Shown here: in pieces, positions 1 through 37,263 of the stretch | Numbering within the stretch: position 1 is the stretch's first letter | Layout: each line of letters starts with the position of its first letter | Origin: a virus | Taxonomy: Duplodnaviria > Caudoviricetes | Strand: one strand, 5' to 3' | IMG/VR virus record: IMGVR_UViG_3300037423_001354 | Location: 1 to 37,263 of that record | Length of the DNA: 37,263 bases | The notes under the pieces: model-generated | Told to the model about the DNA's origin: nothing | The model's database searches: none | The model's input: the letters and a program-made list of their open reading frames with translations, nothing else | Position numbers and translations under genes: made by a program

Positions 1-127
1 ACGGTCTGACGTTGGAACTTACAACGGATATGACGCAGGAGGAAATTGCTCCTCACTGGAATGATATCCTAGCCTGTTTCGAAAAATACGTTGAACGTTT
101 TCCAGATCATGAAACCGTAGAAAACAT
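1..127. repeat. Left copy of 127-bp terminal direct repeat (circular assembly overlap)
   Basis: Identical to 37137-37263; 127 is a common assembler k-mer; a CDS reads through the junction. Confidence 0.95.
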
Positions 128-449
128 GATCGGAGAGGTTGTCACTGGAAAGAGACAACTCTGGATCGTCAAGGATGAAACCGGAAAAGTCATCCTAACA
201 CCAATCACCGAAATCAACACGCTGCCAACTGGTAAGCGAATTATCACAATGTGTGAAATTGGAGGCGAGCGCCTTCAAGACTCGTTGCCCATGCTTTGTC
301 ATATCGAGCAATGGGCGGCTGATACGCATGGTGTAACTGAATCACAATTTCCCGGCAGAACTGGTTACAGAAAATTGCTTGGAAACTACGGATATAAAGA
401 ACACACCGTTTTATTCACCAAACCATTAGAAAAGTCGAAAGATGTCTAA
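12..449 (+). CDS. 3' part of a podophage tail-region protein, GNAT-acetyltransferase-like; true start is TTG 37121 across the circular junction
   Basis: In frame with TTG 37121 (MSWSHNGLTLELTTD...); C-terminal GRTGYRKLL..YGY resembles GNAT-like genes found after podophage tail genes. Confidence 0.55.
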   Translation: MELTTDMTQEEIAPHWNDILACFEKYVERFPDHETVENMIGEVVTGKRQLWIVKDETGKVILTPITEINTLPTGKRIITMCEIGGERLQDSLPMLCHIEQWAADTHGVTESQFPGRTGYRKLLGNYGYKEHTVLFTKPLEKSKDV

Positions 450-873
450 ATCATCAACTCAGAAAACTGAAAACAGTCCTCCAAAATGGGCTGAACCACT
501 TTTGAAAGAAGGTGCGCAACATGCGATGGACCTTTACAACGCTGGTATCGGTTACACTCCTTACATGGGTCAAACTCGTACAGGGTTCTCCGATCCTACC
601 TTAAGCGGAATGAATAACGCTCTAGCGGCAACTGGCTACACAGGTCCAGCCGTCACTAATCAAACGTGGCAAAGTGGTCCTGCTATTCAAAACGCTAAAG
701 ACCTCATTCAACAGCTAATGGTCGCTCGTCAAGCCAAGCTTGATGAAATGAATAAGCCGAAGCCTGTAGCTCCACCAGAAAAGAAAAAGCAACAATTCGA
801 ACCTCACGGCGGTAGCGGCAACGGTCCCGGTGGTCTTGGCGGTTCATCTGCAGGTGGTTGGGGTGGTCACTAA
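442..873 (+). CDS. Virion/ejection-associated protein
   Basis: N-terminal SKSSTQKTENSPPKW is typical of podophage internal proteins; TAATG coupling to next gene. Confidence 0.6.
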   Translation: MSKSSTQKTENSPPKWAEPLLKEGAQHAMDLYNAGIGYTPYMGQTRTGFSDPTLSGMNNALAATGYTGPAVTNQTWQSGPAIQNAKDLIQQLMVARQAKLDEMNKPKPVAPPEKKKQQFEPHGGSGNGPGGLGGSSAGGWGGH

Positions 874-2309
874 TGAACACAGGTAGCTCAAAAACAAACG
901 GAACCAATCAAAACACTGGAACTCCGGCTTGGGGTCAAGTCGGTTCAACCGCATACAACAACATGAATTCGCAGTTGCAAACTGCACCTATAAATGCAGC
1001 TACAACCACATTCGCTAATGGCGGTATGGCTCCTGCGGCTAACGATGCTGTCAACACCTTCCAAGGCATCGCAAACAATGGTGGTACAAACGCGAATATC
1101 GATTGGGCTGTCAACGCTCTGAAAAACAACGGTAGCCAATCCGTCGACACATCAACCCTTCAAGGGATGCTTGGTGGTCAGGGACCAGGTTCCATCAGCC
1201 AAAACAACTGGCAATCCCTTTTCGACAAGTCAGGGACTCCGGGTGCGAACGAAGCGAACCTTTCAGGGATCGCAAGCGGCTCACAGGTCGGACACAATCC
1301 TTATGTCGATGATATGGCCCGTCAGGCCGGGCAAGATGCGGCTAACCAAGTCAACTCTGCATATTCACTCGCTGGCCGTTACGGTTCTGGCGCCCATAAC
1401 AAGGCTGTCGCGAGTGGCGTAGCGAACGCTGAGAACGCTCTCCGCTATCAAGCTTACACCGATGATGCCAACCGCCAGCTGAACGCTTCCAGCGCGATCT
1501 CCGGTGAGCAGGGCAACCGCCTAGGTCTTCAAGGGAACGCTGCCAGTGGGGTCGCTGGGGTCCAAGGAACCAATATCGGGAACTCTATGGCCGATAACGC
1601 CCAAAAGGCCGGTATCGCGCAAACCATCGCAGGCATTCAATCCGGTAATTTGGACCGCTCAACTGGTGCCGCTCAAGGCGTCGGTTCGCTCGGTCAAACC
1701 CAACTTGGCAACACTGTAAATGCGGCTGGTAACGCGGCTCAAACCCAAAACCAAGGCTTCCAAAACATCATGAGCATGATTGGTGCGTTGCCTACGATTC
1801 AAGGCAACAAGACCTATGATGCTGATAAGCAAGCTCAAATCGGTTCCGCGTTGGATCAACAAAGCCAGAACCAGCTTAACGACCTTATCAACCAATTCAG
1901 CCAATTCGACATGCAAGATTGGGCTCGTATCGGTGGTCTTCTATCTGCTGGTACTACATCAGCCGGTAATTGGGGAACTCAGAACACCACGTCAACTCAA
2001 CCTATGAACATTCTAGGTGCGATTGGTTCATTGTTCTCAGGCTTCTCCGATGAAAGCATCAAAAAGAACGTCAAGAAAGTTGGTCAAACTCCGGGTGGTT
2101 TGGATGTCGTTAGATACGATTTGAACGAGAAGGGTGAAAAGCTCGCTGACGAAGCGAAGGAACCAAAGGGCAGGGAAGTCAACGAACGTAAGCCTAAAAA
2201 GGGTGGCATTCTTGGCGTCATTGCACAGGATGTTGCGAAGAAGCAACCAAACGCAGTTGTAAAAGCACCTAACGGCTTGCTGGCTGTCAAATACGGACAA
2301 ATTAGATAA
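873..2309 (+). CDS. DNA ejection/pilot protein with C-terminal peptidase S74-like chaperone domain
   Basis: G/A/N/Q-rich body; FSDESIKKNVKKVG...GVIAQDVAKKQPNAV...GLLAVKY matches the S74 pattern; ATG 873 overlaps the upstream TAA. Confidence 0.7.
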   Translation: MNTGSSKTNGTNQNTGTPAWGQVGSTAYNNMNSQLQTAPINAATTTFANGGMAPAANDAVNTFQGIANNGGTNANIDWAVNALKNNGSQSVDTSTLQGMLGGQGPGSISQNNWQSLFDKSGTPGANEANLSGIASGSQVGHNPYVDDMARQAGQDAANQVNSAYSLAGRYGSGAHNKAVASGVANAENALRYQAYTDDANRQLNASSAISGEQGNRLGLQGNAASGVAGVQGTNIGNSMADNAQKAGIAQTIAGIQSGNLDRSTGAAQGVGSLGQTQLGNTVNAAGNAAQTQNQGFQNIMSMIGALPTIQGNKTYDADKQAQIGSALDQQSQNQLNDLINQFSQFDMQDWARIGGLLSAGTTSAGNWGTQNTTSTQPMNILGAIGSLFSGFSDESIKKNVKKVGQTPGGLDVVRYDLNEKGEKLADEAKEPKGREVNERKPKKGGILGVIAQDVAKKQPNAVVKAPNGLLAVKYGQIR

Positions 2310-2318
2310 GGAATAACG

Positions 2319-4055
2319 ATGGCCGGGATTTTCGACCTATTAAACGACCTGTTCGCAGGTGACCAAGTTGGAATTGATGCAAATCGTAAGCGTAGACAAC
2401 AAGCTGCTTATGATGCCAACAAAGGCACTGATACATCTAAAATCATCGATCCTGCATTCATCGCTGCCCAACAAGCGAAGAATGGTATTCCAGCAAGTGG
2501 CGGCTTTCTTGATTCACTATTGGGTCAGGGTCGTCCAGAGGTCGTTGGGAATAACGATCCTGCGAAAATCAGCCCTCGATCACTCGATCAACGCAAGGCT
2601 GACTTGGCTGCTAATCCAACTTCACAGCCAGCCGGTATCCTTGAAGCCCTTGGCTTGAGAAATCCATTCACCGAAGGCACCCGAACACCAGACATGCAAA
2701 ATGGTGGTGTCGCGGATCAAATCGCAAGATCCAATCCAGCCAGCTATCCTCTTGATCCGGGTATTGCGGCTCAACCAAAGGCCTCTCCGAGCTATCCGCT
2801 CGATCCATCCATCAAGGCTGTGCTTGAAAATGCTCGAGCTAACCAAGCTCCTGCACAGGCGCCAGCGGCAACCGGTCCTGATCGTCAAGTTCCTGGCGGT
2901 CCTGTGAAGCCAAACGCAGATGGTATCCGAGACGTTGACGGCATTTTCCCATCAATCAATCCGGCTGACAAAGCGAAGTATGGGCAATTCCCTGACGCGC
3001 CAAAAGTGGACGCTCAAGGCAACCCATTCCCACCTGCACCTGATCCAACCAAAACAGCGGCAACCAATCCCGCGGCCAAGACTGGTCTCGGTGCTGCGCT
3101 CGGCAGCATGTTCAAGGATTTCGATCCGGCTGCAATAGGGATGGCGCTTACTGCTCTCGATCCCCGTAACGGCGCACTAGCTGCAAGCATCGGAAACCAG
3201 ATGGCGGCTCGTCGTCAGGAAAAGGCTGCGGCTGCTGATAAGAAAGCAAATCAAGAAGGTCTGTATGCATACCTAACCAGCCAAGGCGTGTCTGATACCG
3301 AAGCCCGAATGATGGCTCAAAATCCAGACGTCGCTCAAGCTTGGTGGACACAAAAGCAAAAGGCGAACGCACCTGCTGAATATGGTCTGACTCCGCAATA
3401 CGTGAAGATGAAAGACGGAACCATCAAGGCCGTCCAAGTTTCCAAGGACGGTAGCGGTGTTATCGACGCGGCATCAGGTCAAAAGCTCGATCAATCAGCC
3501 ATCGACGGATGGGTGAACCCTGCTGACATGCAAGGCATGAAGAAAACCGCAACAAACACCTCTGATGCTCAATTCGCACTTCCAGACGTAAACGCAACTG
3601 TTGGACGTATCGACGAGAAGGCGAACGCTATCATCAATAGTCCTGACTTGGACAAAGTGGTCGGTTACGACAACATGAGACCTAACTGGCTTTCATCTAA
3701 CAAAGCTATCGAGCTTCGTGGTTTCATCAAAGAGTTACAAGGCGAACAATTCCTTGCAATTCGTAGCAAATTGAAAGGCCAAGGTTCTATCTCCGACTTT
3801 GAATCAGCCAGAGCGACAGCAATCAACGCGCTTGATAACGCGATGGATGCAAGTGATCCGCAAGTGTTGAAAAACGCAATCATGCGCTTCCAAGACTTCG
3901 CTCACAAGTGGGGTCAAATTGCTGAACAGCAAGCAGGCGGTCAACCGGTCGATAACTCAACTACACAAGCCGCACCTACTTCGCAAAATGGTGGGACACA
4001 ACCGGCACCTAAGAAAGGTGTATACAATCCCAAAACGGGAAAGATTGATTACTAA
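2319..4055 (+). CDS. Internal virion (ejection) protein
   Basis: 578 aa, P/A/Q-rich, SD AAGGA; C-terminal LKGQGSISDFE resembles podophage ejection proteins; position. Confidence 0.6.
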   Translation: MAGIFDLLNDLFAGDQVGIDANRKRRQQAAYDANKGTDTSKIIDPAFIAAQQAKNGIPASGGFLDSLLGQGRPEVVGNNDPAKISPRSLDQRKADLAANPTSQPAGILEALGLRNPFTEGTRTPDMQNGGVADQIARSNPASYPLDPGIAAQPKASPSYPLDPSIKAVLENARANQAPAQAPAATGPDRQVPGGPVKPNADGIRDVDGIFPSINPADKAKYGQFPDAPKVDAQGNPFPPAPDPTKTAATNPAAKTGLGAALGSMFKDFDPAAIGMALTALDPRNGALAASIGNQMAARRQEKAAAADKKANQEGLYAYLTSQGVSDTEARMMAQNPDVAQAWWTQKQKANAPAEYGLTPQYVKMKDGTIKAVQVSKDGSGVIDAASGQKLDQSAIDGWVNPADMQGMKKTATNTSDAQFALPDVNATVGRIDEKANAIINSPDLDKVVGYDNMRPNWLSSNKAIELRGFIKELQGEQFLAIRSKLKGQGSISDFESARATAINALDNAMDASDPQVLKNAIMRFQDFAHKWGQIAEQQAGGQPVDNSTTQAAPTSQNGGTQPAPKKGVYNPKTGKIDY

Positions 4056-5599
4056 TGAAAACAATTACCGGACCTGACGGAATCGATGTCGACTTTCCAG
4101 ACGATATGTCTGATGAAGCCATAGCACAGGTATTTCGCAAACAATTCGGAGGGCCAACAACCGAACCTGCTGAAACCGCTCCGGTTGGTATTGAAGCGAT
4201 TCCAGGCATTGGAAAATATCTGAAGGCGTTCAACGATTTTACAGGCAATGTCCAAACTGGTTTTGCCGACATGGCGACATTCGGTACAGCCGACGAAATC
4301 AACGCAGCAATCAACGCTCCTTTGTCGGACAAGACATATGACCAATTGCTTGAGGATGGCCGTAAACGACTGGCCAATAGCGGAACAGCAGGGACCATCG
4401 GTCAAGCCATTGGCGCCGTCATGCTTCCTGCGGGTGCGGCCAAGACCATTCCTCAAGCTATCGGCATGGGTGCCCTTCAAGGTGGCGCATACGGCTTCGG
4501 TTCTGGTGAAGGTGGTGTTGAAAACAGACTTGAAAACGCAGCCATTGGCGCTGGCGTTGGTGGTGCAATTGGTGGCGTGGCTAACAAGCTCGGTAAAGCG
4601 TTGGCACCTAAGAAGGTCGATGACGCAGCTATTGAAACGCTCGACGGCCTGAAGAACCGAGAAACCCAAGAGTTCAAGAATGTTATCAGCAACGCTCCTA
4701 AGCTGACTTCATCCCAAGTTGATGATGTAGCGACAAAGGCAACCGATAAATTCGATGAATTGTTCAAGCGTGATAACGATGTTTACGCAACCGCGCCTGC
4801 CGAAGTTAAAAAGTTGGTCCAAGACCTGAATACGATTTCAAAGAACGGCAACGGCATTCATCCTGGCATCCTATATGACATGAGTAAAGACCTCGGTGGT
4901 TCTATCACCCATCAGACGTCAAAAACGGAAAAAGCTCAAATCCTTGGTATGAAAAGTATCCTTGATGATGCAGTTAATACAGCGATGCCTCAACTTGATG
5001 ATGCAAAGGGAATTTTCAAGCAATACAAAAAAGCTGAATTGCTTGATGACGCGATAAACGCAGCGAAGGTTCAATCAGAAACCTCAACTGCTGCTAATGG
5101 CTTGGCGGTTGGTAAGGCTGTTAAAAAGCAGATGGCTGATATCTACAAAAAGATTCAGTCAGGTGAACTAACAGGGTTCAAGCCAGAAGAGGTTGACTTG
5201 ATTAAACAAGCGGCAACCGCAGGTACATTCTGGGGTGATCGCGTTAAAGACGTTGGTGCGCTCGTTAATCCAACAACTTTAAGAGGCGCATTGTCTAATC
5301 CGTTCAACTGGATGGATGCGGCGGGAGGTTTGGCAACAGGTGGAATGAGCAACCTCGCGACACTTCCATTAAGAGCGGGTGCCGGTCATCTCATCGTTAA
5401 AGCCGGCGAAAAAATGAATGAAAAATCGTTGAGAAAAGCTATCGAGGCAAGTCAGGTCGTTCGATCAGGCTTGAGCCAAAAAGACCTTCCAAAACTGAAA
5501 AACGGTATAACCAAAAGCATTTTACAAGCACTAATGGAAAAAGCTAATTCACCATACGTTGCGGCTGTAGGAGCTTACGATTTAAACAAAGAAGAATAA
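4055..5599 (+). CDS. Internal virion (ejection) protein
   Basis: ITGPDG..VDFPDDMSDEAI N-terminus, ATFGTADEI motif and Gly/Ala hydrophobic segments; TAATG coupling. Confidence 0.65.
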   Translation: MKTITGPDGIDVDFPDDMSDEAIAQVFRKQFGGPTTEPAETAPVGIEAIPGIGKYLKAFNDFTGNVQTGFADMATFGTADEINAAINAPLSDKTYDQLLEDGRKRLANSGTAGTIGQAIGAVMLPAGAAKTIPQAIGMGALQGGAYGFGSGEGGVENRLENAAIGAGVGGAIGGVANKLGKALAPKKVDDAAIETLDGLKNRETQEFKNVISNAPKLTSSQVDDVATKATDKFDELFKRDNDVYATAPAEVKKLVQDLNTISKNGNGIHPGILYDMSKDLGGSITHQTSKTEKAQILGMKSILDDAVNTAMPQLDDAKGIFKQYKKAELLDDAINAAKVQSETSTAANGLAVGKAVKKQMADIYKKIQSGELTGFKPEEVDLIKQAATAGTFWGDRVKDVGALVNPTTLRGALSNPFNWMDAAGGLATGGMSNLATLPLRAGAGHLIVKAGEKMNEKSLRKAIEASQVVRSGLSQKDLPKLKNGITKSILQALMEKANSPYVAAVGAYDLNKEE

Positions 5600-6378
5600 T
5601 GTCGAACGATAACAAGGCACTAGTTTACAACGCTCTTAAAGCACAAGGTTGGAACGATATTCAAATCTCTGGCATGATGTCAGCGATCGAGCATGAATCC
5701 AACTTCAATCCTAGAGCTTTTAACCCGAACGATCCCGGTGGCTCCGTTGGTCTAAACCAGTGGTTAGGTGGCAGAAAACAAGCTCTTTATGATTTCACTG
5801 GAACCCAAAACCCATCGATCCCGCAACAAGTTGACTTCCTGAACCATGAACTGAATACGAATGAAAAGGCAGCGGGTGACGCATTAAGAGCGGCAAAAAC
5901 TCCGGGTGAAGCTGCTCAAGCGATGGTTCAATTCGAGCGCTTCAAAGGCTACGACAACCCCAACAATCCTGAAAGACTAGCTCGTATCAAAACAGCTTAC
6001 GGTTATGCCGGCCAGCAATATGAGCCAATGACCCCAGAGCAAATTGCGGCTGCTGGCGGTCAAACTGGAACGGCTCCTATTCAGCCAGCGAACGGGCAGG
6101 GTGGCGGTCATGCTCCCGCTAATCAGCCACCTCCAGGCATCCTAGCGATGCTCACTGGTAAGGCTCCTCCACCAACTGCGAAACAAGTCGGTGGCGGCAT
6201 TCTCAGCGCTCTTTCAAGTTTGGGTGATTCAGCCGTCGCTGCACCAACTCCACCACCTATGCCGCAGCAACCTACTAACAGTCCGCAACTAGCTGAGTAT
6301 GTAAATCAGTACGGTCAATCTGTTTTCAAAAAGACGCCATTTGACAACCCATTCGCCTATAAAAACGGTTTTGCCTAA
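5599..6378 (+). CDS. Virion-associated phage tail lysozyme (Phage_lysozyme2-like)
   Basis: IEHESNFNP..GSVGLNQW.GGR...QQVDFLNHEL...FER motif set; Pro-rich tail. Confidence 0.8.
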   Translation: MSNDNKALVYNALKAQGWNDIQISGMMSAIEHESNFNPRAFNPNDPGGSVGLNQWLGGRKQALYDFTGTQNPSIPQQVDFLNHELNTNEKAAGDALRAAKTPGEAAQAMVQFERFKGYDNPNNPERLARIKTAYGYAGQQYEPMTPEQIAAAGGQTGTAPIQPANGQGGGHAPANQPPPGILAMLTGKAPPPTAKQVGGGILSALSSLGDSAVAAPTPPPMPQQPTNSPQLAEYVNQYGQSVFKKTPFDNPFAYKNGFA

Positions 6379-6381
6379 ATA
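6375..6381 (+). promoter_or_regulatory. CTAAATA late-type promoter upstream of tail fibre 1
   Basis: Recurring intergenic motif, sense to the downstream gene; overlaps the upstream stop codon. Confidence 0.55.
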
Positions 6382-6457
6382 ACTGACGAAACAAACTGAA
6401 CGCAATTTTTGAAAGGCTTGATGATGAGAACAAAAGACATTTTAAGGAAGTACGATA

Positions 6458-8044
6458 TTGTCATCAATCTACGATTGGTCAACGACCGCAGGGAATAACG
6501 ATTCTGCCGACTCCGCGATTAACTGGCTAGAAGGTCAAGACCCAAACACTGTTAACAACTCTAACCGCGCTATGATGATGCGCGTTGCAGAGTTGTTAGA
6601 TGATCAGGGAGCCGTCAACACCACTGCCGGAACTGCATCAGCATTCACATTAACAGCGTCTTCCTCATTCACAACGCTAGCTGATGGATTGATTATCGGT
6701 TTCGTTGCAAGCGTTAACTCAAATGCGTCAGCCACAATCAACGTCAATGGCCTAGGTGCTCGTTCACTCAGACGATTGGTCCCAAGTGGTGACGTAGCAA
6801 TCGCTGCAAACGACTTGGTGGCGAACCAAAAATATGTCGCTCACTATAACACCAAGGCGAACTCAAACGCTGGCGGTTGGGTCGTATTAAATCCATCTGG
6901 CGTTATTCCGAATGAAAGCCTTTCAGGCGCTTACACCAACGTAACCAGTCTGACGATGGCTCAAGCGGCTAACACCGCAGCTATCATCATTTCCGGTCCG
7001 TCTCCTTCAATCAAGTTCACTGATACCGATTCAGGGGCAGACGACTTTTGGGCATACGTAAACGGTGACAGCTTCTATGTACGAAGCGACCGAACCGAAG
7101 CTGGCTCAGCCCAACTTCCTCATCCGCTTCAACTCAATAACACCACAAGCGTTGGTTCGATCTACGGTTCAACCGTTTGGACCGAAGGCAATGACGGTTC
7201 CTCATCCGGTCTCGATGCCGATTTGCTCGACGGCCAACACGGTGCCTATTACCTTCCAGCGGCATCCTACACAGCGTCAGACGTCCTAACCAAGATCAAG
7301 ACCGTTGACGGTGCTGGCTCTGGTTTGGACGCTGATTTGCTCGATGGTCAAACCGGAGCTTACTACTCAAACGCTTCAAACATCGCGACTGGCACAGTTC
7401 CTGACGCCAGATTGCCAACCCGTATTGGAACCGTAGCCAAGACAATCACTGACTGGAACAACGCCCAGGAAAATGGCTGGTACATGGGTTCAGCCGTTAC
7501 CAATGCGCCTTCAACAGCTTGGTACATTGGTGAAGTTCAGGTTCATAGAAACGATGCTCCTAACGGATATGTCGTTCAAACTGTCACTGGTTTTACAACG
7601 GCTTCTGATTCCGATTCCGTCACATACCGTAGATATCTTCAAGCCAATGTATGGACGGCATGGGCACGTCTTCGTATCAGCCAGACCGAGCTTGACACTC
7701 GTTACGTTCGTTCAGGTGCGACAACCACTCTTACCGCTGGTTATCCAACAACCGCAGTCAATGACGGCACGAAGTCATCAGGCACTTACACTCCTGATCC
7801 ATCAACCGGCTCATTCCGTGAAGCTACGAACAATGGCGCCCATACTCTAGCGCCACCAACTGTCAGCGGCTCATATACGATGGTGATTGATTACACCAAT
7901 GGTGCAACTGCTGGTGCGATTACCTCATCTGGTTTCACTAAGGTATCAGGTGACACCTTCACCACTACGAATGGTAACAAATTCCGCTGCTACATTTCTA
8001 AAGGTGGTGTAGGAACTCACTTGCATATCCAAGCCATGCAGTAA
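6458..8044 (+). CDS. Tail fibre protein 1
   Basis: Two SGLDADLLDGQxGAYY repeats; knob-like ITDWNNAQENGWY domain; TTG start after AAGGAAG. Confidence 0.8.
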   Translation: MSSIYDWSTTAGNNDSADSAINWLEGQDPNTVNNSNRAMMMRVAELLDDQGAVNTTAGTASAFTLTASSSFTTLADGLIIGFVASVNSNASATINVNGLGARSLRRLVPSGDVAIAANDLVANQKYVAHYNTKANSNAGGWVVLNPSGVIPNESLSGAYTNVTSLTMAQAANTAAIIISGPSPSIKFTDTDSGADDFWAYVNGDSFYVRSDRTEAGSAQLPHPLQLNNTTSVGSIYGSTVWTEGNDGSSSGLDADLLDGQHGAYYLPAASYTASDVLTKIKTVDGAGSGLDADLLDGQTGAYYSNASNIATGTVPDARLPTRIGTVAKTITDWNNAQENGWYMGSAVTNAPSTAWYIGEVQVHRNDAPNGYVVQTVTGFTTASDSDSVTYRRYLQANVWTAWARLRISQTELDTRYVRSGATTTLTAGYPTTAVNDGTKSSGTYTPDPSTGSFREATNNGAHTLAPPTVSGSYTMVIDYTNGATAGAITSSGFTKVSGDTFTTTNGNKFRCYISKGGVGTHLHIQAMQ

Positions 8045-8055
8045 GGTGGCGTGAT

Positions 8056-8931: not shown

Positions 8932-9272
8932 TGGAATACGTAGGACCATGGAAGTTTCTGAAAATCACAGCCAACGGTTGCTCATTCGAAATTCCTCCTG
9001 CGTCAATCGTGGATAACACATGGGTTGAGGTGTCAGCCAATGACTATCCGTGGCAGGAAGTTAAGGACGCAATCAATGAAGCTAGGGCAACAGTTTGGAA
9101 TGCGGATTTTATGAAGGCTTACAAGCGTGAACGTGAGGGTGAGATTGTTAATTCATACCATGAATGGAAACTATCGGACGAACAATTCCAACAAATTTTA
9201 GATGCTGTCCCCGACAACATACGCGAAGCACTTATAGAACTGGACGATTATAACAAAGGAAATACATGTTAG
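8931..9272 (+). CDS. Hypothetical protein
   Basis: TAATG coupling; operon position. Confidence 0.55.
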   Translation: MEYVGPWKFLKITANGCSFEIPPASIVDNTWVEVSANDYPWQEVKDAINEARATVWNADFMKAYKREREGEIVNSYHEWKLSDEQFQQILDAVPDNIREALIELDDYNKGNTC

Positions 9273-24041: not shown

Positions 24042-24057
24042 TAAAGGAGATAACCAT

Positions 24058-27784: not shown

Positions 27785-27794
27785 AAGCGGACGA

Positions 27795-27833
27795 CTAAAT
27801 CAGGTTGTCAGCTATTAGGAGGCAACCTTGATT
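27795..27833 (+). promoter_or_regulatory. CTAAATC promoter variant overlapping an RBS/start-occluding hairpin
   Basis: Arms 27798-27809 and 27821-27833 cover part of AGGAGG and TTG 27828. Confidence 0.6.
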
Positions 27834-28268: not shown

Positions 28269-28271
28269 ATA
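28265..28271 (+). promoter_or_regulatory. ATAAATA late-type promoter upstream of portal
   Basis: Motif variant at the head of a structured leader of about 180 nt. Confidence 0.5.
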
Positions 28272-28451
28272 ACTGATTGCGGAATAGCGTTCAAAGGCTC
28301 TGACAGCCTCACTGGACGCTATTCGCGGTCTCTTAGCGGCTAGGCCGCCCATTATCAACGAAATCAATTTTGCCATGACAGGGGAGGGACGTTTGGTTCC
28401 GCCAACAGTGATTTTTTTATCAATTTTTACCAGTCGATTGCGAAGGAATAG

Positions 28452-30650: not shown

Positions 30651-30658
30651 GGATTCAC

Positions 30659-30901
30659 ATGGATAAGACCGAAAAAGAACGTAGAGGCTACGAAGCTCAA
30701 AGACTGATGCAAGAGCCTCTGCTTAATGAAGCATTTGACAAAATCGAACAGGAAGCCGTTGACGAAATGTTGGCACTTCCTTTCTGGTCAGACAAAAAGC
30801 GTAGAATGCTGGTTGACCGTATCAAGGTCATTCGTGATTTCAGAAGCCATCTAACTTCCGTCATCACATCAGGTAGCACCAACCGCAAAACGTTTGTTTA
30901 A
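30659..30901 (+). CDS. Small protein between portal and scaffold
   Basis: A..L...PLL.EAF..IE pattern typical at this position. Confidence 0.7.
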   Translation: MDKTEKERRGYEAQRLMQEPLLNEAFDKIEQEAVDEMLALPFWSDKKRRMLVDRIKVIRDFRSHLTSVITSGSTNRKTFV

Positions 30902-30913
30902 AACGCATTTTCA

Positions 30914-30920
30914 CTAAATA
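30914..30920 (+). promoter_or_regulatory. CTAAATA(GCT) late-type promoter upstream of scaffold
   Basis: Recurring motif; intergenic; sense. Confidence 0.7.
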
Positions 30921-31060
30921 GCTTTCCTTGCCTGAACGTTGATAGGCAAACGTCAGCACTCCGAATTATCGGCCTGATTTCCTCGTCATGAGTCAGCTTT
31001 TTAGCTGCCATTAGAAACAAAGAGTCCGCTGGACCACACTTATGACTAAGGAAAAAAGAA

Positions 31061-32020
31061 ATGGAAGAATCACTCTCAGACTTCAACCTCTCACCTGAAC
31101 AGGATGCCGCGCTGAACGCAGCGCTTGGCCTTGACGATGACGAGGATAACCAATCCCCTCAAGCTGCTGCTCCTCAAGCTCCTGAACCTCGCCACCAAGA
31201 GGAAGACGCCGGCGACGATCAGTCTGACGAAGGTCATGACGAATCCGAAGACGATGAAGAAGGCCAAGAGCCTGTTCAGGCGTCCTATGCTGATAAGAAC
31301 CACAAAGTTCGCCTCGATGACGGCACCGAAGTTTCCGTTGCTGACCTGATCCGCGGGAACATGCGTGACAAGGATTACACCACCAAGAGCCAAGAGCTTG
31401 CTGCACAGCGCCAGGACACCGAAGCTCGTATTGCAAAGCTCAAGGACGGTGAAGCTGCCTACGATATCGCCCAAACCATCCTGTTGGCTGCGATGCCTGC
31501 TGAACCAACCGAAGACATGCTGATTTCCAACCCAATGGAATATTTCCAGCAAAAGGCACTCTATGACCAACGTCTTGGTCAGTACCAAAAAATCCTAGAT
31601 GCAAAGCGTCTCTATGCGGAAGCCCAAAAGGATGAAGCCCAAAGAGGTTTCAACGAATGGGCTGACAATGAACGTCAACGTGCCCAAGAGGTTCTTCCAG
31701 AACTGAAAACCAAGGAAGGCGTTGACGCCTTCAACCATGACCTTCTCAACGCTGTATCAAAGTATGGCTTCACCGAAGACGACGTTGGCGGCATCTACGA
31801 TCACAGGTTCTTGGTGATGGCTAGAGACCTGATCGAATATCAAAAGATCATCGGAAACCGTGAAAATGCGGTCCAAAAGGTTCAAGGCAAACCACCTTTG
31901 AGCCCTGGAAAACGTCAAACAAATAGCAACGCTGACTCTGCCGACCTTATGAAAAAATGGAAGGCAGGAGGTGGTAAAAACAATGACGACCTCAACAAGC
32001 TGTTGGACAAATTTTTCTAA
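31061..32020 (+). CDS. Capsid scaffolding protein
   Basis: Acidic N-terminus; VSVADL..G.MR..DYT.KSQELA; YDHR motif; precedes MCP. Confidence 0.85.
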   Translation: MEESLSDFNLSPEQDAALNAALGLDDDEDNQSPQAAAPQAPEPRHQEEDAGDDQSDEGHDESEDDEEGQEPVQASYADKNHKVRLDDGTEVSVADLIRGNMRDKDYTTKSQELAAQRQDTEARIAKLKDGEAAYDIAQTILLAAMPAEPTEDMLISNPMEYFQQKALYDQRLGQYQKILDAKRLYAEAQKDEAQRGFNEWADNERQRAQEVLPELKTKEGVDAFNHDLLNAVSKYGFTEDDVGGIYDHRFLVMARDLIEYQKIIGNRENAVQKVQGKPPLSPGKRQTNSNADSADLMKKWKAGGGKNNDDLNKLLDKFF

Positions 32021-32040
32021 TCGGTAAAATTCTCCGAAAA

Positions 32041-32047
32041 CTAAATA
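32041..32047 (+). promoter_or_regulatory. CTAAATA late-type promoter upstream of major capsid
   Basis: Recurring motif at the head of a structured leader of about 250 nt. Confidence 0.7.
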
Positions 32048-32296
32048 CGACTGTAATTTGAGATACAGACTCGAAAGAGCACCCTGTAAGTGACGTTACC
32101 TCGATTATGAGGTTGAGGGATTTAAACGATCCGCTGAATAGCAGACTTGAAAAAGCACCCTGCGAATAGCCAATCGTAAAATGACCTCGTGGAAACAACC
32201 ACGTTAAAAAACACCAACCAAAAGTCAAAATCAAAACATTTAGACCGACTGGACGCAAGTTCCGGCGGCTATCAATTTTTAGAGGAAAACGCCACT

Positions 32297-33295
32297 ATGG
32301 CAAAAGTATCAAACGCATTCGATACCTACCAATCAGTAGGTAACAGAGAAGAACTCTCTGACATCATCTATAACATCACTCCTGAAGAAACCCCTTTGAT
32401 GACCCTTTTGGGCCGTGAAAAGTGCGTTTCAAGACATCCTGAATGGCAAACCGATACCTTGAAAACTCCAGGTGCAAACGCTGTGGTTGAAGGTAACCAA
32501 TGGTCATTCGCTTCAGTCGTTCCAACAGTCCGTGTTGGTAACTACACCCAAATCTCCGAACTTACCTATGGTGTCACAAACACCCAAGAAACCGTCGACA
32601 AGGCTGGCCGTTCTTCACAGATCAAGTACGGCACTGTTAAGGCTGGTAAGGAACTCAAGAGAGACATGGAATATGCTCTTTTGGCTAAGCAGGCATCCGT
32701 TGTCGGTGCTGACTCAACAACCGCTCGTCAACTTGGTTCATTCGCTTCATGGCTTAAGACCAATAATGACAGTGGTTCAGGTGGTTCAACAACTGGTTAC
32801 AACTCAGGTACAGGCCTTGTTGCTGCACCTACAAACGGTACTTTCAGAGCGTTCACTAAGACTCAACTAGAAGCCGTTGCACAAAAGACATATACCTCAG
32901 GTGGTAACTTCACCACTTTGATGTTGTCACCATATGCTAAGCAAGTGTTCTCAACCTTCGCATCTGCTGACCAACTTAGATCAAACCAAAGCTCTGGTAA
33001 GAACGACCAAATCACCATCACAACCGGTGCTGATATGTACGTTTCAAACTATGGCCCTATCTCAGTTGTTGCTAACAGAGTCATGGCTACTGCAAACACC
33101 ACTGCATCCCATGTCCTTCTTATCGACCCTGATATGGCAAAGGTTGGTATCGCTCGTCCAATCACTGTTCGTGACGTTGGCGCAGTTGGTGACGCTGTTC
33201 AAAAGGTCATCAACGTTGAATACACCCTTATCATGAAGAATGAAGCTGCTCACGGTAAAATCGCCGACATCTTCGGTCTGTCAGCTACAACCTAA
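32297..33295 (+). CDS. Major capsid protein (DUF5309/SU10-like)
   Basis: GNREELSDIIYNITPEETP, HPEWQTD.L, GNYTQI, ELKRDME, EYTL..KNEAAHG; ATG 32297 with SD GAGGA. Confidence 0.92.
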   Translation: MAKVSNAFDTYQSVGNREELSDIIYNITPEETPLMTLLGREKCVSRHPEWQTDTLKTPGANAVVEGNQWSFASVVPTVRVGNYTQISELTYGVTNTQETVDKAGRSSQIKYGTVKAGKELKRDMEYALLAKQASVVGADSTTARQLGSFASWLKTNNDSGSGGSTTGYNSGTGLVAAPTNGTFRAFTKTQLEAVAQKTYTSGGNFTTLMLSPYAKQVFSTFASADQLRSNQSSGKNDQITITTGADMYVSNYGPISVVANRVMATANTTASHVLLIDPDMAKVGIARPITVRDVGAVGDAVQKVINVEYTLIMKNEAAHGKIADIFGLSATT

Positions 33296-33317
33296 TAGAT
33301 CGAATATCACTGAAATT

Positions 33318-33339
33318 AGGCACCTTCGGGTGCCTTTTT
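33318..33339 (+). terminator. Intrinsic terminator with cUUCGg tetraloop
   Basis: AGGCACC-TTCG-GGTGCCT-TTTT. Confidence 0.9.
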
Positions 33340-33362
33340 CATATGATGAGATAGCAGTGATA

Positions 33363-33369
33363 CTAAATA
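33363..33369 (+). promoter_or_regulatory. CTAAATA promoter for the candidate sRNA
   Basis: Recurring motif lying between two terminators. Confidence 0.65.
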
Positions 33370-33374
33370 GGTTT

Positions 33375-33507
33375 GTTATAATGAGAAGGGTGATCCTTAT
33401 TGTTTATGTTGGTTAGAAGCGATCACTAAAGTAAAACATTCCTAAAAGCTCCTTGTTAAAAATCGTTGAACCCAGATGGTTGAGTGAATCCTACCATCTG
33501 GGTTTTT
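33375..33507 (+). ncRNA. Candidate sRNA of about 130 nt with anti-SD sequence
   Basis: Own promoter and terminator (33469-33507); no long ORF; 14-nt complement to the RBS of gene 12841..13155. Confidence 0.5.
33469..33507 (+). terminator. Intrinsic terminator
   Basis: AACCCAGATGGT/ACCATCTGGGTT 12-bp stem plus U-run. Confidence 0.8.
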
Positions 33508-33535
33508 CACATTCATCGGTAAAAAACACGAAAGA

Positions 33536-33573
33536 CTAAATAGCTGTGTAAATAAAAACCATAACAAAAAGGA
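33536..33573 (+). promoter_or_regulatory. CTAAATA promoter; diverged fourth copy of the cassette repeat
   Basis: CTAAATAGCTGTGTAAATAAAAACCATAACAAAAAGGA versus CTAAATAGCTGCGTGAATGAAACGTATAACAAAAAGGA. Confidence 0.7.
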
Positions 33574-33582
33574 TTCACAAAA

Positions 33583-34089
33583 ATGGTTACACAGCAAAGA
33601 CTAAAAGAAGTTCTCGATTACAATCCGGAAACAGGCGAATTTACGTGGAAGGAGAGAGGTCAGGGACGAATAGTCGGCAAGAGGGCCGGAACACTGTCTG
33701 TTTCAAAAACGTCAATGAGACGCTGGTTTTTATGCGTTGATAGACAAGTCATGCTTCGTTCACGTGCCGCATGGATTTACATGACGGGTGAAGACATCAC
33801 TGGAAAGGTCATCGATCATATCAATCGTAATACCGAAGATGATCGATTTAAAAACCTACGTTCCTGCACTCAAAATCAGAACATGAAAAACCGCAAGGCT
33901 AATTCGAATAGCGCCACAGGTGTTAAAGGTGTCTTCTACAATAAGGCAAAGAATAAGTGGGGAGTCAGTCTAGGAAAGAATACCGGCCTGTTCAAGACAA
34001 TCGATGAAGCGGCAATCGCTTACAACAAGGTGGCTAAGGAGTTGTACGGGGAATTCGCCTATCAAAATCCAATCGGGCTAAATACCTAG
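33583..34089 (+). CDS. HNH-AP2 homing endonuclease
   Basis: LDYNPETGEFTWK; IDHINRN..DDR..NLR..T..QN..N; AP2 GVKGV...KW...EAAIAYN. Confidence 0.88.
   Translation: MVTQQRLKEVLDYNPETGEFTWKERGQGRIVGKRAGTLSVSKTSMRRWFLCVDRQVMLRSRAAWIYMTGEDITGKVIDHINRNTEDDRFKNLRSCTQNQNMKNRKANSNSATGVKGVFYNKAKNKWGVSLGKNTGLFKTIDEAAIAYNKVAKELYGEFAYQNPIGLNT
34078..34084 (+). promoter_or_regulatory. CTAAATA promoter upstream of the 34117 gene
   Basis: Motif in the last codons of the HNH gene; imperfect hairpin with SD AAGGA. Confidence 0.6.
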
Positions 34090-34116
34090 ACATTTTAAAC
34101 TAAGGAATTTTCAAAA

Positions 34117-34488
34117 ATGCGCTTCAACGTATCCCAAGACGAATTGCGAAAAATGGACCTCGGTTCGCTCGTTCGTAAAAACATGATTTTCGATGACCCA
34201 AAAATGGGTATCAGAGTGATTGAATACGAGTTCGAACTAGGAACCGTCAACAAGACGATTTGGTATGCACAAAATGCATTCATGGATGCGTTGAAGGAAA
34301 TTCGTAACAATAATATCGGTACGAAATCGGATACAAAATCAGCCATGGGAACTAAGGTGGCAACCATTCCAATGCATATTTGGGCACGTGAGGTTGCGCC
34401 TCGTCAAAAGGATGGCAACGACACATCGTTGAAGAAGTGGCTGAATGGTGAAGGTTCCATATTCAAAGTAAGAGACGGCGAGGTTTAA
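34117..34488 (+). CDS. Post-capsid hypothetical protein
   Basis: VATIP..IW...LKKWLN pattern seen downstream of this MCP type. Confidence 0.7.
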   Translation: MRFNVSQDELRKMDLGSLVRKNMIFDDPKMGIRVIEYEFELGTVNKTIWYAQNAFMDALKEIRNNNIGTKSDTKSAMGTKVATIPMHIWAREVAPRQKDGNDTSLKKWLNGEGSIFKVRDGEV

Positions 34489-34528
34489 GGGCTTCGCCGT
34501 CCTTTTCACACCTAAGAAGCGTGGATCA

Positions 34529-34535
34529 ATAAATA
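34529..34535 (+). promoter_or_regulatory. ATAAATA late-type promoter upstream of the adaptor gene
   Basis: Motif variant adjoining a CGGTAAC/GTTACCG hairpin. Confidence 0.5.
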
Positions 34536-34570
34536 CGGTAACAAGCAATTAAGTTACCGGATTCTAATCA

Positions 34571-35179
34571 TTGACCACACTGTCAGACTTAAACTCAGCA
34601 ATCGCAAGCTTCCTATTTGATAGAACGGAATTGACTCCGCAATTCTCCACATTCATCGCCATTCTAGAAGGCGAACTGAACCAAATTCTCCGTGTTAACG
34701 ATCAGCTTAAGACAACCACGCTGACGCTCGATGCCAACGGCGAAGCAACCCTCCCAGACGATTTCCTAAGCTTCCGCTCCGCTGTCTCACAAACCAATCC
34801 TGTTATCAGACTTGACCACATTGTACCGGGGACACTCGATGCACTGTATCCGGCTGTCAGTGGCTATCCACAAGTGTTCTCAATCGTGGGGAACACTCTA
34901 AGGGTTCGCCCAATTAATTCAGCCGATGTGAAGCTAACATATTACGCAACGCTACCTGCGTTGACCGAAGGCAATCCAACAAACTGGCTACTAACAAAGG
35001 CATACAACGTCTATTTGTATGGCGCATTGAAACATGCGGCTGACTTTGAAAACGAGACAGAAAGAAAAGCAATATTCGAAAACAATTACATCAAGGCTGT
35101 AGGCCAATTAATCGACAACGATAAAAACGCAAAATACGGAGCTAGAACCGTATCTAGAATTGCGGGTCCAACTCCATAA
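34571..35179 (+). CDS. Head-tail adaptor (tail tubular A / P22 gp4-like)
   Basis: LPDDFL...G.PQVF...LTYYA.LPAL...NPTNWLL....VYLYGAL pattern. Confidence 0.75.
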   Translation: MTTLSDLNSAIASFLFDRTELTPQFSTFIAILEGELNQILRVNDQLKTTTLTLDANGEATLPDDFLSFRSAVSQTNPVIRLDHIVPGTLDALYPAVSGYPQVFSIVGNTLRVRPINSADVKLTYYATLPALTEGNPTNWLLTKAYNVYLYGALKHAADFENETERKAIFENNYIKAVGQLIDNDKNAKYGARTVSRIAGPTP

Positions 35180-36690
35180 TGAGTGATAAAATAATCGTCC
35201 CTATCGGACAGTTTGGCCCTGACCGCAGCCCTTTCGATCCGAACTTCACCGACACCGCTTTCAACGTCATCCCATATGACGATCACTTCGGCCCATTTCC
35301 CGGCTTCCAGTATTTCAGTGGTGCGGTTCCTGCTCAGCCTCAAGGTGGATACCTGGCTGATAAAGGCAGCGGTGTATGGCTTCCAATCGTGGGGACTGCC
35401 AATGCCCTCTACAAGCTCGATTCATCCACTAACGCATGGGTCGACGTATCAGGGAACACTGCCCCTTATGCCACTCCTGCAGGCACCCAATGGTCATTCA
35501 CTCCGTTCGGCAATCTGGTTATCGCAACCAATGGCGTTGATAAGCCCGTCCAGCTTGATGTCAGCAACCCAGCGGCCAAGTTCGACCTGCTTTCAAACGA
35601 TGCCCCAAGAGGGAAGAACGTCGGTGTAACGGGCGACTATCTCGTTTTCAGCAACATCGCTGCAACGAGTGACAAGGCCGTTCAATGGTCTGGCCTGAAC
35701 CAACCAACAATCTGGGATTCTCTCGTTCAAAACTCCGATGACCAGCTTTTCGCTGACGGTGGCGAAATCATGAACATCACAGGGTTCGAACACGGCTTCG
35801 TAATCTTCCAAGAACACTGCATTCGTGAAGGTTCAATCACCGGAACCAACATGATCATGTCATTCAATAAGACCGTCAATAACATGGGCGTTCATGCTCG
35901 TAATTCCGTTGTCAACACTGGCGCCGGTATCTTCTTCCTATCTCAAGATGGCTTCTATCGATACAATTCAGGTGGTCAACCTCAACCAATCGGTGTTTCA
36001 CGTGTTGACATATTCTTTTACACCGATTGCTCACTTCCTGATTCATACCAAACCATCGGGGTTGAAGATCCAGCTAGAAAGATCGTTTATTGGGCTTATC
36101 GTTCAAAGGAAAACACCACAGTCAACACATATGATCGCATCCTAGTTTACAACTATGGCGTTGATAGATGGTCGTTGATCAAGCTCGATTTCAAAGCGCA
36201 AATGATCTGTAGCGCTGTCTCTCCCGGCTACACCCTCGACAACATCGGAACGCTTACAGGCTACAACCTCGACACATTGCCTTGGTCACTTGATTCAAGA
36301 ATCTGGGCTGGTTCGCTTCCAACGTTCGCTGCGTTCGATGACCAGTACCGACTTGGGTTCTTCTCATCCACTCCGATGAAGGCAACCATTCAAACCGCTG
36401 AACTCCCGTTGACTGAAGGCAGACGCAGCCTTGTCAAAGGCTTCACCGTTCAAACAGACGCCAGCCGAACCGATAGCTCTCCCTCCCAAAAGGGCAGGGT
36501 GGCCCGTAAGGACTATGAAAGCGATCCGAGCACATGGGGCGTTCAATATCCCTTGAACACAACCACCGGCGTCATTTTCGCTCGTTCATCCGGCAAGCTC
36601 CACAGATTTGAGGTCGAGCTTCCATCAGGAACAAACTGGAAAGTCGTTCACGGCGTTGAGGTTCAAAAAGACGCTGGAGGACAACGCTAA
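35179..36690 (+). CDS. Tail hub/nozzle (P22 gp10-like beta-propeller)
   Basis: 503 aa, beta-rich, WS.LN, FFLSQDGFY; follows the adaptor. Confidence 0.75.
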   Translation: MSDKIIVPIGQFGPDRSPFDPNFTDTAFNVIPYDDHFGPFPGFQYFSGAVPAQPQGGYLADKGSGVWLPIVGTANALYKLDSSTNAWVDVSGNTAPYATPAGTQWSFTPFGNLVIATNGVDKPVQLDVSNPAAKFDLLSNDAPRGKNVGVTGDYLVFSNIAATSDKAVQWSGLNQPTIWDSLVQNSDDQLFADGGEIMNITGFEHGFVIFQEHCIREGSITGTNMIMSFNKTVNNMGVHARNSVVNTGAGIFFLSQDGFYRYNSGGQPQPIGVSRVDIFFYTDCSLPDSYQTIGVEDPARKIVYWAYRSKENTTVNTYDRILVYNYGVDRWSLIKLDFKAQMICSAVSPGYTLDNIGTLTGYNLDTLPWSLDSRIWAGSLPTFAAFDDQYRLGFFSSTPMKATIQTAELPLTEGRRSLVKGFTVQTDASRTDSSPSQKGRVARKDYESDPSTWGVQYPLNTTTGVIFARSSGKLHRFEVELPSGTNWKVVHGVEVQKDAGGQR

Positions 36691-37067
36691 TGGGACCACA
36701 AAATCAACAGACTATTGTTAAGCTCCTATCATCCGATCCGCCAAAAGTGTCGGTCGGTTTCAAGACATCAACTGTCAGTGACGTTGCATATGAAAACAAG
36801 GTGCAAATCTCATATTTGATAAGCGCCAGAGTGGCTAACGTGAGTGGTGCAGATGCAACTGTTACAGCGAAATGGTATAATTCGAAAAACGCAACTGACT
36901 ACACATTAGCGAACGCAATCAAGGTTCCTGTAAATTCATATCTGACTATCAATTTGGATGACCTGACGACATTAACAGGCGACAAGCTGAAAATAACAGG
37001 ATCAGCTAACAACGCTTTTCATTGCATTGTGACCGTCAAGGAACTTAGTTCCAGAAACACCGGATAA
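36690..37067 (+). CDS. Hypothetical virion protein
   Basis: Beta-rich; L..GDKLK motif; TAATG coupling. Confidence 0.6.
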   Translation: MGPQNQQTIVKLLSSDPPKVSVGFKTSTVSDVAYENKVQISYLISARVANVSGADATVTAKWYNSKNATDYTLANAIKVPVNSYLTINLDDLTTLTGDKLKITGSANNAFHCIVTVKELSSRNTG

Positions 37068-37086
37068 TCGTAAGAAACAGCATCGG

Positions 37087-37122
37087 CTAAATAGTAGTTC
37101 AAAGGATAAAGGAGCTACTATT
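37087..37122 (+). promoter_or_regulatory. CTAAATA promoter overlapping an 11-bp RBS/start-occluding hairpin
   Basis: AATAGTAGTTC (37090-37100) pairs with GAGCTACTATT (37112-37122). Confidence 0.75.
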
Positions 37123-37263
37123 GAGTTGGTCACATAACGGTCTGACGTTGGAACTTACAACGGATATGACGCAGGAGGAAATTGCTCCTCACTGGAATGA
37201 TATCCTAGCCTGTTTCGAAAAATACGTTGAACGTTTTCCAGATCATGAAACCGTAGAAAACAT
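37121..37263 (+). CDS. 5' part of the gene that continues at 12..449
   Basis: SD AAGGAG and TTG start; in frame across the junction. Confidence 0.7.
   Translation, partial: MSWSHNGLTLELTTDMTQEEIAPHWNDILACFEKYVERFPDHETVEN
37137..37263. repeat. Right copy of 127-bp terminal overlap
   Basis: Identical to 1-127. Confidence 0.95.

What the first reader, a model, noticed from the sequence alone, without database searches (positions are those of the whole stretch)
1..37263. Candidate new class of satellite: a complete podovirion under T4-type late promoters with no sigma factor of its own
Seen: CTAAATA lies at operon heads, sense to the downstream gene, at 6375, 13218(-), 18560(-), 22154, 22622, 24015, 30914, 32041, 33363, 33536, 34078 and 37087. 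Variants are ATAAATA at 10413, 28265 and 34529, CTAAATC at 27795 and exact TATAAATA at 21292(-). At the CTAAATA sites I checked there is no CTTGAC/TTGAC -35 at canonical spacing, unlike the host-type SOS promoter near 14980. Known: T4 late promoters are a lone TATAAATA read by the phage sigma gp55 with gp33 and gp45. From memory, CTAAATA-like variants are reported in more distant T4-like phages; this should be verified. Seen: no ORF resembles gp55, an RNAP, a CI repressor, replisome proteins or an endolysin. Inference: the integrated element could stay silent without a repressor and fire only when a T4-like myovirus supplies late sigma, and perhaps replication and lysis, then package itself in its own virion. 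This would invert the P4/PICI logic, and could also act as anti-phage defence.
Basis: partly seen in the sequence, partly recalled or inferred. Interest (0 to 1): 0.92.

Follow-up and report, generated by a model that had tools for sequence, protein, structure and literature searches.

The report
Podophage wired to T4-type late promoters
A small soil phage that carries genes for its own whole particle puts the late-gene promoter word of T4-like rhizobial phages in front of most of its operons but has no detectable gene for the factor that reads it, so it likely lies silent in its host until a T4-like phage infects and switches it on, which would make it a bacterial counterpart of the virophages of protists.

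Summary
Observation confirmed and strengthened. The window is a complete circular 37.1-kb SU10/phiM5-type podophage with an integrase. CTAAATA occurs 12 times (2.8 expected); all 12 lie 39-256 nt upstream of a same-strand gene, with no -35 element. The same word heads late operons of the gp55-encoding Sinorhizobium phage phiM12 and none of 11 replication or regulatory genes tested. An A-tract 12-14 nt upstream is shared with phiM12, phiN3 and Cr30. A host-integrated relative in Pseudaminobacter soli keeps the promoters and layout, but is broken. That host genome has only 38 copies in 6.1 Mb. No gp55, gp33, gp45, sigma, CI, polymerase, helicase or canonical endolysin was found. Best reading (0.68): a satellite phage switched on by a T4-like helper's late sigma. 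Not shown: any helper, RNA data, or defence. A 296-aa HTH protein beside iteron-like repeats could be an own initiator or activator. A sister prophage also lacks these genes but has no motif. Satellites with their own capsid (MiniFlayer, MulchRoom) and late-promoter virophages (mavirus) are known; this combination was not found in 10 literature searches. This scan noted T4-type promoters before on other DNA, including a lambda-like prophage.

The parts
6375..6381 (+). CTAAATA before tail fibre operon (6458-10420)
10413..10419 (+). ATAAATA before 773-aa second fibre-like gene
13212..13218 (-). CTAAATA before 104-aa membrane protein
18554..18560 (-). CTAAATA before 18505-18206 and 18087-17683; read-through could reach the integrase (inferred)
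21285..21292 (-). TATAAATA before the leftward operon (296-aa HTH protein, two unknown ORFs, GIY-YIG nuclease)
   Evidence: ATAAATA at the like place in L087
21170..21177 (+). antisense TATAAATA inside the 296-aa gene, pointing at the repeat region; also in L087
21337..21553 (.). iteron-like repeats (TGATAGGCCC x6, AGAGTAAA x4), candidate replication origin (inferred)
   Evidence: different repeats at the like place in L087
22149..22196 (+). promoter-leader cassette, copy 1 (CTAAATA at 22154)
22617..22664 (+). promoter-leader cassette, copy 2 (CTAAATA at 22622)
24010..24057 (+). promoter-leader cassette, copy 3 (CTAAATA at 24015), heads the HNH-HU-terminase run
27795..27801 (+). CTAAATC variant before HNH 27828-28268
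28265..28271 (+). ATAAATA before portal
30914..30920 (+). CTAAATA before scaffold
32041..32047 (+). CTAAATA before major capsid protein
33363..33542 (+). two CTAAATA sites (33363, 33536) before HNH 33583-34089
34078..34084 (+). CTAAATA before 34117-34488
34529..34535 (+). ATAAATA before adaptor and tail genes
37087..37093 (+). CTAAATA before the ejection-protein operon that continues across the circle junction
25777..37067 (+). likely small terminase (inferred from position), TerL, SU10-type portal, scaffold, SU10-type capsid, adaptor, tail protein
12..12787 (+). ejection proteins, tail lysozyme (5599-6378), fibres, DUF4376, two small membrane proteins (9873-10420, holin-like by hydropathy)
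16362..17519 (-). tyrosine integrase, 60% identical to the P. soli element's
20301..21191 (-). 296-aa orphan: excisionase-like HTH, beta-rich middle domain, C-terminal wHTH; candidate initiator, excisionase or activator
14214..16172 (-). host-type cassette: LigD-like ligase domain, SOS-type box at 14946, sigma70-like promoter at 14979, two small genes, terminator at 14188

Best explanation
This podophage genome carries the late-promoter word of rhizobial T4-like phages in front of its packaging, head, tail and likely replication genes and has no detectable factor to read it, so it is most likely a satellite phage whose genes are switched on by the gp55-type late sigma of a co-infecting T4-like helper. 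Shown: motif, placement, lack of a -35, match to phiM12/phiN3/Cr30 late promoters including the upstream A-tract, conservation in an integrated relative, a full virion gene set, no sigma hit. Inferred: a Rhizobiales host; silence without a repressor because host RNA polymerase does not read these sites; helper gp55/gp33/gp45 firing all units at once; the 296-aa HTH protein binding the adjacent repeats and recruiting a helper or host replisome; packaging by its own terminase into its own particle; release by the helper's endolysin, possibly timed by the element's small membrane proteins. Harm to the helper is a guess.
For: 12 sites against 2.8 expected; 12 of 12 upstream and sense. Of the 21 single-base variants only ATAAATA is clearly enriched upstream (4 of 5); two others are 2 of 2. 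No -35 signal. phiM12 encodes gp55, gp33 and gp45 and has (C/A)TAAATA 31-55 nt before 10 of 10 chosen late or homing-endonuclease starts (6 of them already seen) and before 0 of 11 replication or regulatory genes. CTAAATA: 26 against 5.5 expected in phiM12, 28 against 5.8 in phiN3; 5 of 5 Cr30 sites are upstream. A at -14..-12: 28 of 36 positions in the window (background 0.29); at the same offsets 34 of 78 in phiM12, 35 of 84 in phiN3 and 11 of 15 in Cr30 (p below 0.001 each). The P. soli element has 3 CTAAATA and 4 ATAAATA sites in 11.5 kb; its genome has 38 CTAAATA in 6.1 Mb. Of 151 related sequences only the window and L087 reach p<0.01. Six-frame HMM searches for gp55, gp33, gp45, gp32, gp41 and gp59 gave no hit under E 0.05; PF04542 and phrog_234 none. 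The cultured relative RHph_I1_23 has a repressor/cro pair and an endolysin and no upstream CTAAATA. GC is 48%, against 57-65% in the host flanks and 58% in RHph_I1_23.
Against: No helper was identified and no expression data are in hand. Only two members are known, and the second is cut in the portal by an IS-like end, with capsid and tail genes not found in that assembly. The next relative (Phyllobacterium sophorae prophage, TerL 55%, capsid 60%) also shows no replication or repressor gene in PHROGs but has an endolysin and no CTAAATA enrichment (2 against 3.9 expected), so missing genes alone do not mark helper dependence. Flanks differ from phiM12: G follows the motif in 9 of 12 window sites, A in 10 of 17 phiM12 sites, and T4 promoters are AT-rich downstream (PMC2988020). 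The A-tract is not seen at phiM12 or phiN3 ATAAATA sites. Codon use does not single out phiM12 (r 0.43; OC 0.57). In T4, activation needs the sliding clamp on the DNA and gp33 represses basal transcription (PMC2988020), so the first firing from an integrated copy is unexplained. Most alphaproteobacterial sigma70 promoters lack the -7 T (PMC8407463), so TAAATA is not an impossible host -10. About 20 small ORFs remain unannotated.
Confidence: 0.68

Rival explanations
1. Autonomous temperate phage with activator-dependent promoters: host sigma70 reads TAAATA as a -10, and an element protein (the 296-aa HTH/wHTH protein or an SOS-cassette product) binds the A-tract/GGTAAAA box about 25-30 nt before the start, in the manner of T4 MotA (recalled).
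For: A second conserved element exists upstream. The element encodes an HTH/wHTH orphan whose N-terminus is weakly shared with L087 (29% over 66 aa). SOS-type boxes lie in both elements. Alphaproteobacterial promoters often lack -7 T (PMC8407463).
Against: The 296-aa gene itself lies behind TATAAATA. Only its first 60 residues are shared although the promoters are alike. The A-tract also occurs at phiM12, phiN3 and Cr30 sites, which have gp55. The near-invariant 7-mer is unlike a degenerate sigma70 -10. The SOS operon ends in a terminator at 14188 after two small genes.
Confidence: 0.15
2. The element encodes its own, very divergent small sigma or late activator among its unannotated ORFs, as some podophages do (phiEco32, recalled).
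For: About 20 ORFs of 60-150 aa have no family. The right arm of the relative is missing, so conservation of such a gene could not be tested.
Against: No hit with gp55 or sigma models in six frames. The unannotated non-structural ORFs, apart from the 296-aa one, are at most about 150 aa, against 193 aa for phiM12 gp55. The middle domain of the 296-aa protein is predicted to be beta-rich (low confidence).
Confidence: 0.07
3. Facultative dependence: the phage grows slowly on its own, and a helper's late sigma only boosts it, or the promoters are relics of past dependence.
For: A sister prophage with a similarly bare early region has its own endolysin and no motif. One site (33363) is followed by a TGnTATAAT-like extended -10.
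Against: All 12 sites are exact and well placed, and three are near-identical copies of one cassette, which fits ongoing use. No canonical endolysin was found.
Confidence: 0.07
4. Ordinary host RpoD promoters.
For: GCTAAAT resembles the Caulobacter -10 consensus (recalled); -7 T is often absent in this class (PMC8407463).
Against: No -35 signal; only 38 copies in a 6.1-Mb related host genome, fewer than the 104 of the reversed control; constitutive expression of virion genes without a repressor would be hard to reconcile with an integrated state (inference).
Confidence: 0.03

Closest known systems
Late promoters of T4-like phages read by gp55 with gp33 and gp45 (PMC2988020; CTAAATA in Aeh1, PMC1524935; phiM12, phiN3, Cr30 tested here)
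   Same: Lone -10 box without -35; same 7-mer, similar distance to the start codon and same upstream A-tract as phiM12, phiN3 and Cr30; also drives homing endonuclease genes.
   Different: Lies in a 37-kb podophage with no gp55, gp33 or gp45; also precedes non-virion genes; downstream flank is GCTG-rich.
Streptomyces satellite phages MiniFlayer and MulchRoom (PMC10690885)
   Same: Own terminase, portal, capsid, scaffold and adaptor; no primase found; HNH and GIY-YIG nucleases; integrase plus HTH gene (MulchRoom); low GC.
   Different: Those are 15-17 kb. MulchRoom showed long siphovirus-like tails and MiniFlayer does not integrate. This element is 37 kb with a full podoviral tail, ejection and fibre set plus integrase. 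'Promoter' and 'sigma' do not occur in that paper's main text. Their dependence is shown by experiment; here it is inferred.
Provirophage mavirus and giant virus CroV (bioRxiv 10.1101/068312)
   Same: Integrates, silent until superinfection, promoters like the helper's late motif, makes its own particles.
   Different: Eukaryotic and unrelated in sequence: an analogy of mechanism only. Activation and protection were shown for mavirus.
PLE of Vibrio cholerae, PICI, cf-PICI and P4
   Same: Integrated elements triggered by a helper; PLE answers a lytic phage and depends on its transcriptional progress (PMC13595925); P4 late promoters answer P2 Ogr (recalled).
   Different: These borrow capsids or tails; this element encodes both. 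No primase or CI was found here.
phiM5/RHph_I1_23-like temperate rhizobial podophages with SU10-type virion genes
   Same: Capsid 50% identical to RHph_I1_23, same structural gene order, integrase.
   Different: RHph_I1_23 has repressor/cro, ERF, RusA-like and endolysin genes, 58% GC and no upstream CTAAATA.

Membership tests
T4-type late promoter | Short near-invariant TAAATA box without -35 | tested here: met
T4-type late promoter | Same word as late promoters of gp55-encoding phages of related hosts | tested here: met
   phiM12, phiN3, Cr30; (their promoters are inferred from position, not mapped)
T4-type late promoter | Transcription start about 6-7 nt downstream, dependent on gp55 | not testable with these tools
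   needs start mapping or reporters
Satellite phage (MiniFlayer/MulchRoom type) | Own encapsidation genes | tested here: met
Satellite phage (MiniFlayer/MulchRoom type) | No replication enzymes | tested here: inconclusive
   no polymerase, primase or helicase hit, but an orphan HTH protein beside repeats could be an initiator
Satellite phage (MiniFlayer/MulchRoom type) | Cannot propagate without a helper | not testable with these tools
   uncultured
PICI / PLE / P4-like satellites | Lack of own tail genes (and, except cf-PICI, capsid genes) | tested here: not met
   full head and tail set
PICI / PLE / P4-like satellites | Integrase and chromosomal residence | tested here: met
   integrase; relative joined to host DNA in P. 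soli; the window itself is a circle
SU10/phiM5-like podophage virion lineage | SU10 portal, capsid and adaptor families | tested here: met
   PF23899, PF17236, PF24175 above cut-off
Autonomous lambdoid-type temperate phage | CI/Cro switch and canonical endolysin | tested here: inconclusive
   none detected; divergent forms cannot be excluded
CtrA-controlled alphaproteobacterial phages | TTAA-N7-TTAA boxes | tested here: not met
   0 in the window

The most novel reading that the evidence does not exclude
A bacterial provirophage: an integrating phage with a complete virion of its own that needs no repressor, because almost its whole genome is readable only by the late sigma of a virulent T4-like phage, which it exploits and possibly suppresses; one example of a wider class of phages that plug into a helper's late promoter code.
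Probability: 0.5. Interest if true: 0.92.

Novelty: new variant of a known kind. Interest (0 to 1): 0.78.

Why it matters
It would show a repressor-free way to keep a prophage silent and to sense one class of attacker through its sigma factor. It would extend satellite biology to elements that borrow transcription rather than particles. Satellites defined by missing structural genes would not include such elements, so genomes now filed as complete autonomous phages may be helper-dependent, and their promoter word predicts the helper. A direct test exists, since phiM12 and Sinorhizobium meliloti are cultured.

Tried and rejected
L081 is an unrelated AT-rich contig with the match antisense inside a gene. 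The 296-aa protein has no full-length homolog; single-sequence folds were low confidence (pLDDT 39 and 50), fold searches gave nothing clear, and an atlas lead to DUF669 scored only 0.85. The idea that the Phyllobacterium prophage uses the phiM9 word TAAAATA was rejected: 9 of its 12 sites are on the opposite strand and none is upstream of a gene. CtrA boxes: none. Rfam and tRNA in the window: none. PADLOC: 0 of 22. Sequencing runs: one soil DNA holder, possibly the source; no RNA holder listed. Laying its contigs showed no joints; the 191-kb 'longest record' was not among the laid pieces and was dropped as a helper clue. An att core could not be pinned. A gapped pattern search over five phages used a wrong spacer and is uninformative. 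The one-word literature search returned noise.
Full report
The sequence. The window is the whole record and closes into a 37,136-bp circle through a 127-nt terminal repeat; it is classed as complete with direct terminal repeats. PHROGs and Pfam scans of 52 ORFs show TerL, SU10-type portal, capsid and adaptor, scaffold, tail and ejection proteins, a tail lysozyme, fibres, three HNH and one GIY-YIG nuclease, HU, a LigD-like ligase domain and a tyrosine integrase. No polymerase, primase, helicase, sigma, CI or canonical endolysin was hit. The best cultured capsid matches are Rhizobium phages at 50%.

The motif is real. CTAAATA occurs 12 times against 2.83 in shuffles, and 0 of 100 shuffles reach 12. 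It tops the intergenic word list. All 12 sites lie 39-256 nt upstream of a same-strand start, 9 within 100 nt. Four of 5 ATAAATA sites do too; the fifth is antisense inside the 296-aa gene. Among the 21 single-base variants only ATAAATA is clearly enriched. There is no -35 signal. A second feature emerged: A fills 28 of 36 positions at -14 to -12, and G follows the motif in 9 of 12 sites. The motif must be a -10-type element, because in the relative two sites lie only about 25 nt from their start codons (inference). Units headed by the motif cover the structural arm and the leftward operon. The integrase, the SOS-type cassette and the 14059-13231 genes have no such site directly upstream.

It matches rhizobial T4-like late promoters. 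CTAAATA was reported as the late promoter of Aeh1 (PMC1524935, passages). In phiM12, which encodes gp55, gp33 and gp45, (C/A)TAAATA lies 31-55 nt before 10 of 10 chosen late or homing-endonuclease starts and before 0 of 11 replication or regulatory genes. Six of the ten were already known, where gp21, gp20 and gp13, which lie inside operons, had none within 90 nt. Whole-genome counts are 26 against 5.5 expected (phiM12) and 28 against 5.8 (phiN3); all 5 Cr30 sites are upstream; Ochrobactrum phage OC uses ATAAATA (40 of 58 upstream); the 50 kb of phiM9 examined use TAAAATA. The A-tract found in the window recurs at the same offsets in phiM12 (34 of 78), phiN3 (35 of 84; not independent of phiM12) and Cr30 (11 of 15), but not at OC CTAAATA or at phiM12 and phiN3 ATAAATA sites. 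The downstream flank differs from phiM12, so the helper is probably a relative and not phiM12 itself.

It is not a host promoter word. Pseudaminobacter soli has 38 copies in 6.1 Mb, 3 of them in the related element, against 104 for the reversed control. Alphaproteobacterial sigma70 promoters often lack -7 T (PMC8407463, abstract), so the hexamer alone does not exclude host polymerase; the missing -35 and the invariance argue against it.

Relatives. The nearest is joined to host DNA in P. soli HC19 (L087; integrase 60%, TerL 69%, portal 64%). It repeats the layout: integrase, ligase, HTH genes behind ATAAATA, repeats, then CTAAATAGCTG sites before a small gene and an HNH gene. Its portal ends at an inverted-repeat end that I recall as IS21-like, and capsid and tail genes were not found in that assembly, so it is a remnant. 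The next relative, in Phyllobacterium sophorae, also shows no replication or repressor family among the ORFs scanned, but has an endolysin and no CTAAATA excess. Of 151 sequences tested (related loci of 8 kb or more, some overlapping, plus the window and two whole relatives), only the window (p 3e-6) and L087 (p 0.001) show upstream enrichment below 0.01. The trait is thus specific to this small lineage, and absence of early genes is weaker evidence than the promoters.

No reader found. HMMs built from three or four T4-like phages for gp55, gp33, gp45, gp32, gp41 and gp59 gave nothing under E 0.05 in six frames; PF04542 and phrog_234 gave none. The only regulator-like gene is the 296-aa orphan: weak excisionase-like and wHTH hits, no full-length homologs, a beta-rich middle domain at low confidence. 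It sits behind TATAAATA and next to six TGATAGGCCC repeats, the layout of an initiator and its origin (inference). It could recruit either a host or a helper replisome.

Mechanism (inferred). The element integrates. Host polymerase reads only the integrase region and the SOS-type cassette, so no repressor is needed. A T4-like myovirus infects; its gp55 holoenzyme fires the motif-headed units; the element excises, replicates from the repeats, packages itself in its own podovirion and leaves at lysis, probably by the helper's endolysin. Two small membrane proteins at the usual lysis position may affect timing. One difficulty: in T4, strong late transcription needs the clamp on the DNA and gp33 represses basal transcription (PMC2988020, passages), so the first firing needs basal activity on supercoiled DNA or a helper-made nick. 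Defence is untested.

Comparison with what is known. MiniFlayer and MulchRoom encode encapsidation but lack primases (PMC10690885: abstract, first part of Results, passages); the words promoter and sigma do not occur in its main text; its supplements were not read. Mavirus is silent until CroV infects, shares CroV's late promoter and makes its own particles (10.1101/068312, passages). PLE activation follows ICP1's transcriptional progress, with the cue unresolved (PMC13595925, abstract and passages). PMC4621102 and PMC6630229 (passages) describe gp55 in phiM9-like phages without a promoter motif in the passages seen. P4 activation by P2 Ogr, MotA, phiEco32 and the Caulobacter consensus are recalled, not checked. 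Ten literature searches found no report of a tailed phage with a full virion under a helper's late sigma; the library lacks most subscription papers. Notes of this scan describe T4-type boxes in a lambda-like prophage and in three islands; I did not test them.

Verdict. Observation confirmed; satellite reading likely (0.68) but unproven; a new variant of satellite phage that works like a provirophage. Interest 0.78.

Noticed in passing
window 21170-21177 (+) and L087 4333-4340 (+): An antisense TATAAATA about 15-20 nt inside the HTH gene is present in both elements and points at the repeat region; it could prime or activate the origin, or only reflect conserved codons.
   Followed up: partly
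L087 1198-1273 (-): The P. soli element carries a tRNA-Gln(CTG) gene between a CTAAATA-headed small gene and the integrase; the window has no tRNA.
   Followed up: no
G002:C44 about 298100-334300 (L254, L088, L255): Phyllobacterium sophorae prophage beside a tRNA-like sequence: 47% GC, almost no GATC (observed/expected 0.01), endolysin present, no detectable replication or repressor genes. It may depend on a different helper.
   Followed up: partly
window 7185-7251: A tail-fibre repeat is 78% identical in DNA over 67 nt to the phiM12 tail-fibre gene; similar stretches occur in many fibre families, so this is weak.
   Followed up: partly
window 22149-22196, 22617-22664, 24010-24057, 33531-33578: A 48-nt promoter-leader cassette has been copied in front of small orphan genes, like moron cassettes.
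   Followed up: partly
window 27795, 28265, 33536, 34078: Two HNH genes inserted in the morphogenesis operon have a motif before them and another at their end, as if restoring expression of the downstream gene.
   Followed up: no
window upstream of 14059(-) and 17519(-): ATTATAAA-type words precede the integrase and the 61-aa gene; they may be host -10 elements or weak late-promoter variants.
   Followed up: no
window 13385-13840 (-) and 25255-25569 (+): A Lys/Ala/Pro-rich histone-like ORF and an HU-family gene.
   Followed up: no
L257 (phiM9 1-50000): TAAAATA precedes phiM9 late genes (10 sites against 0.2 expected): a likely late promoter of this phage family.
   Followed up: partly
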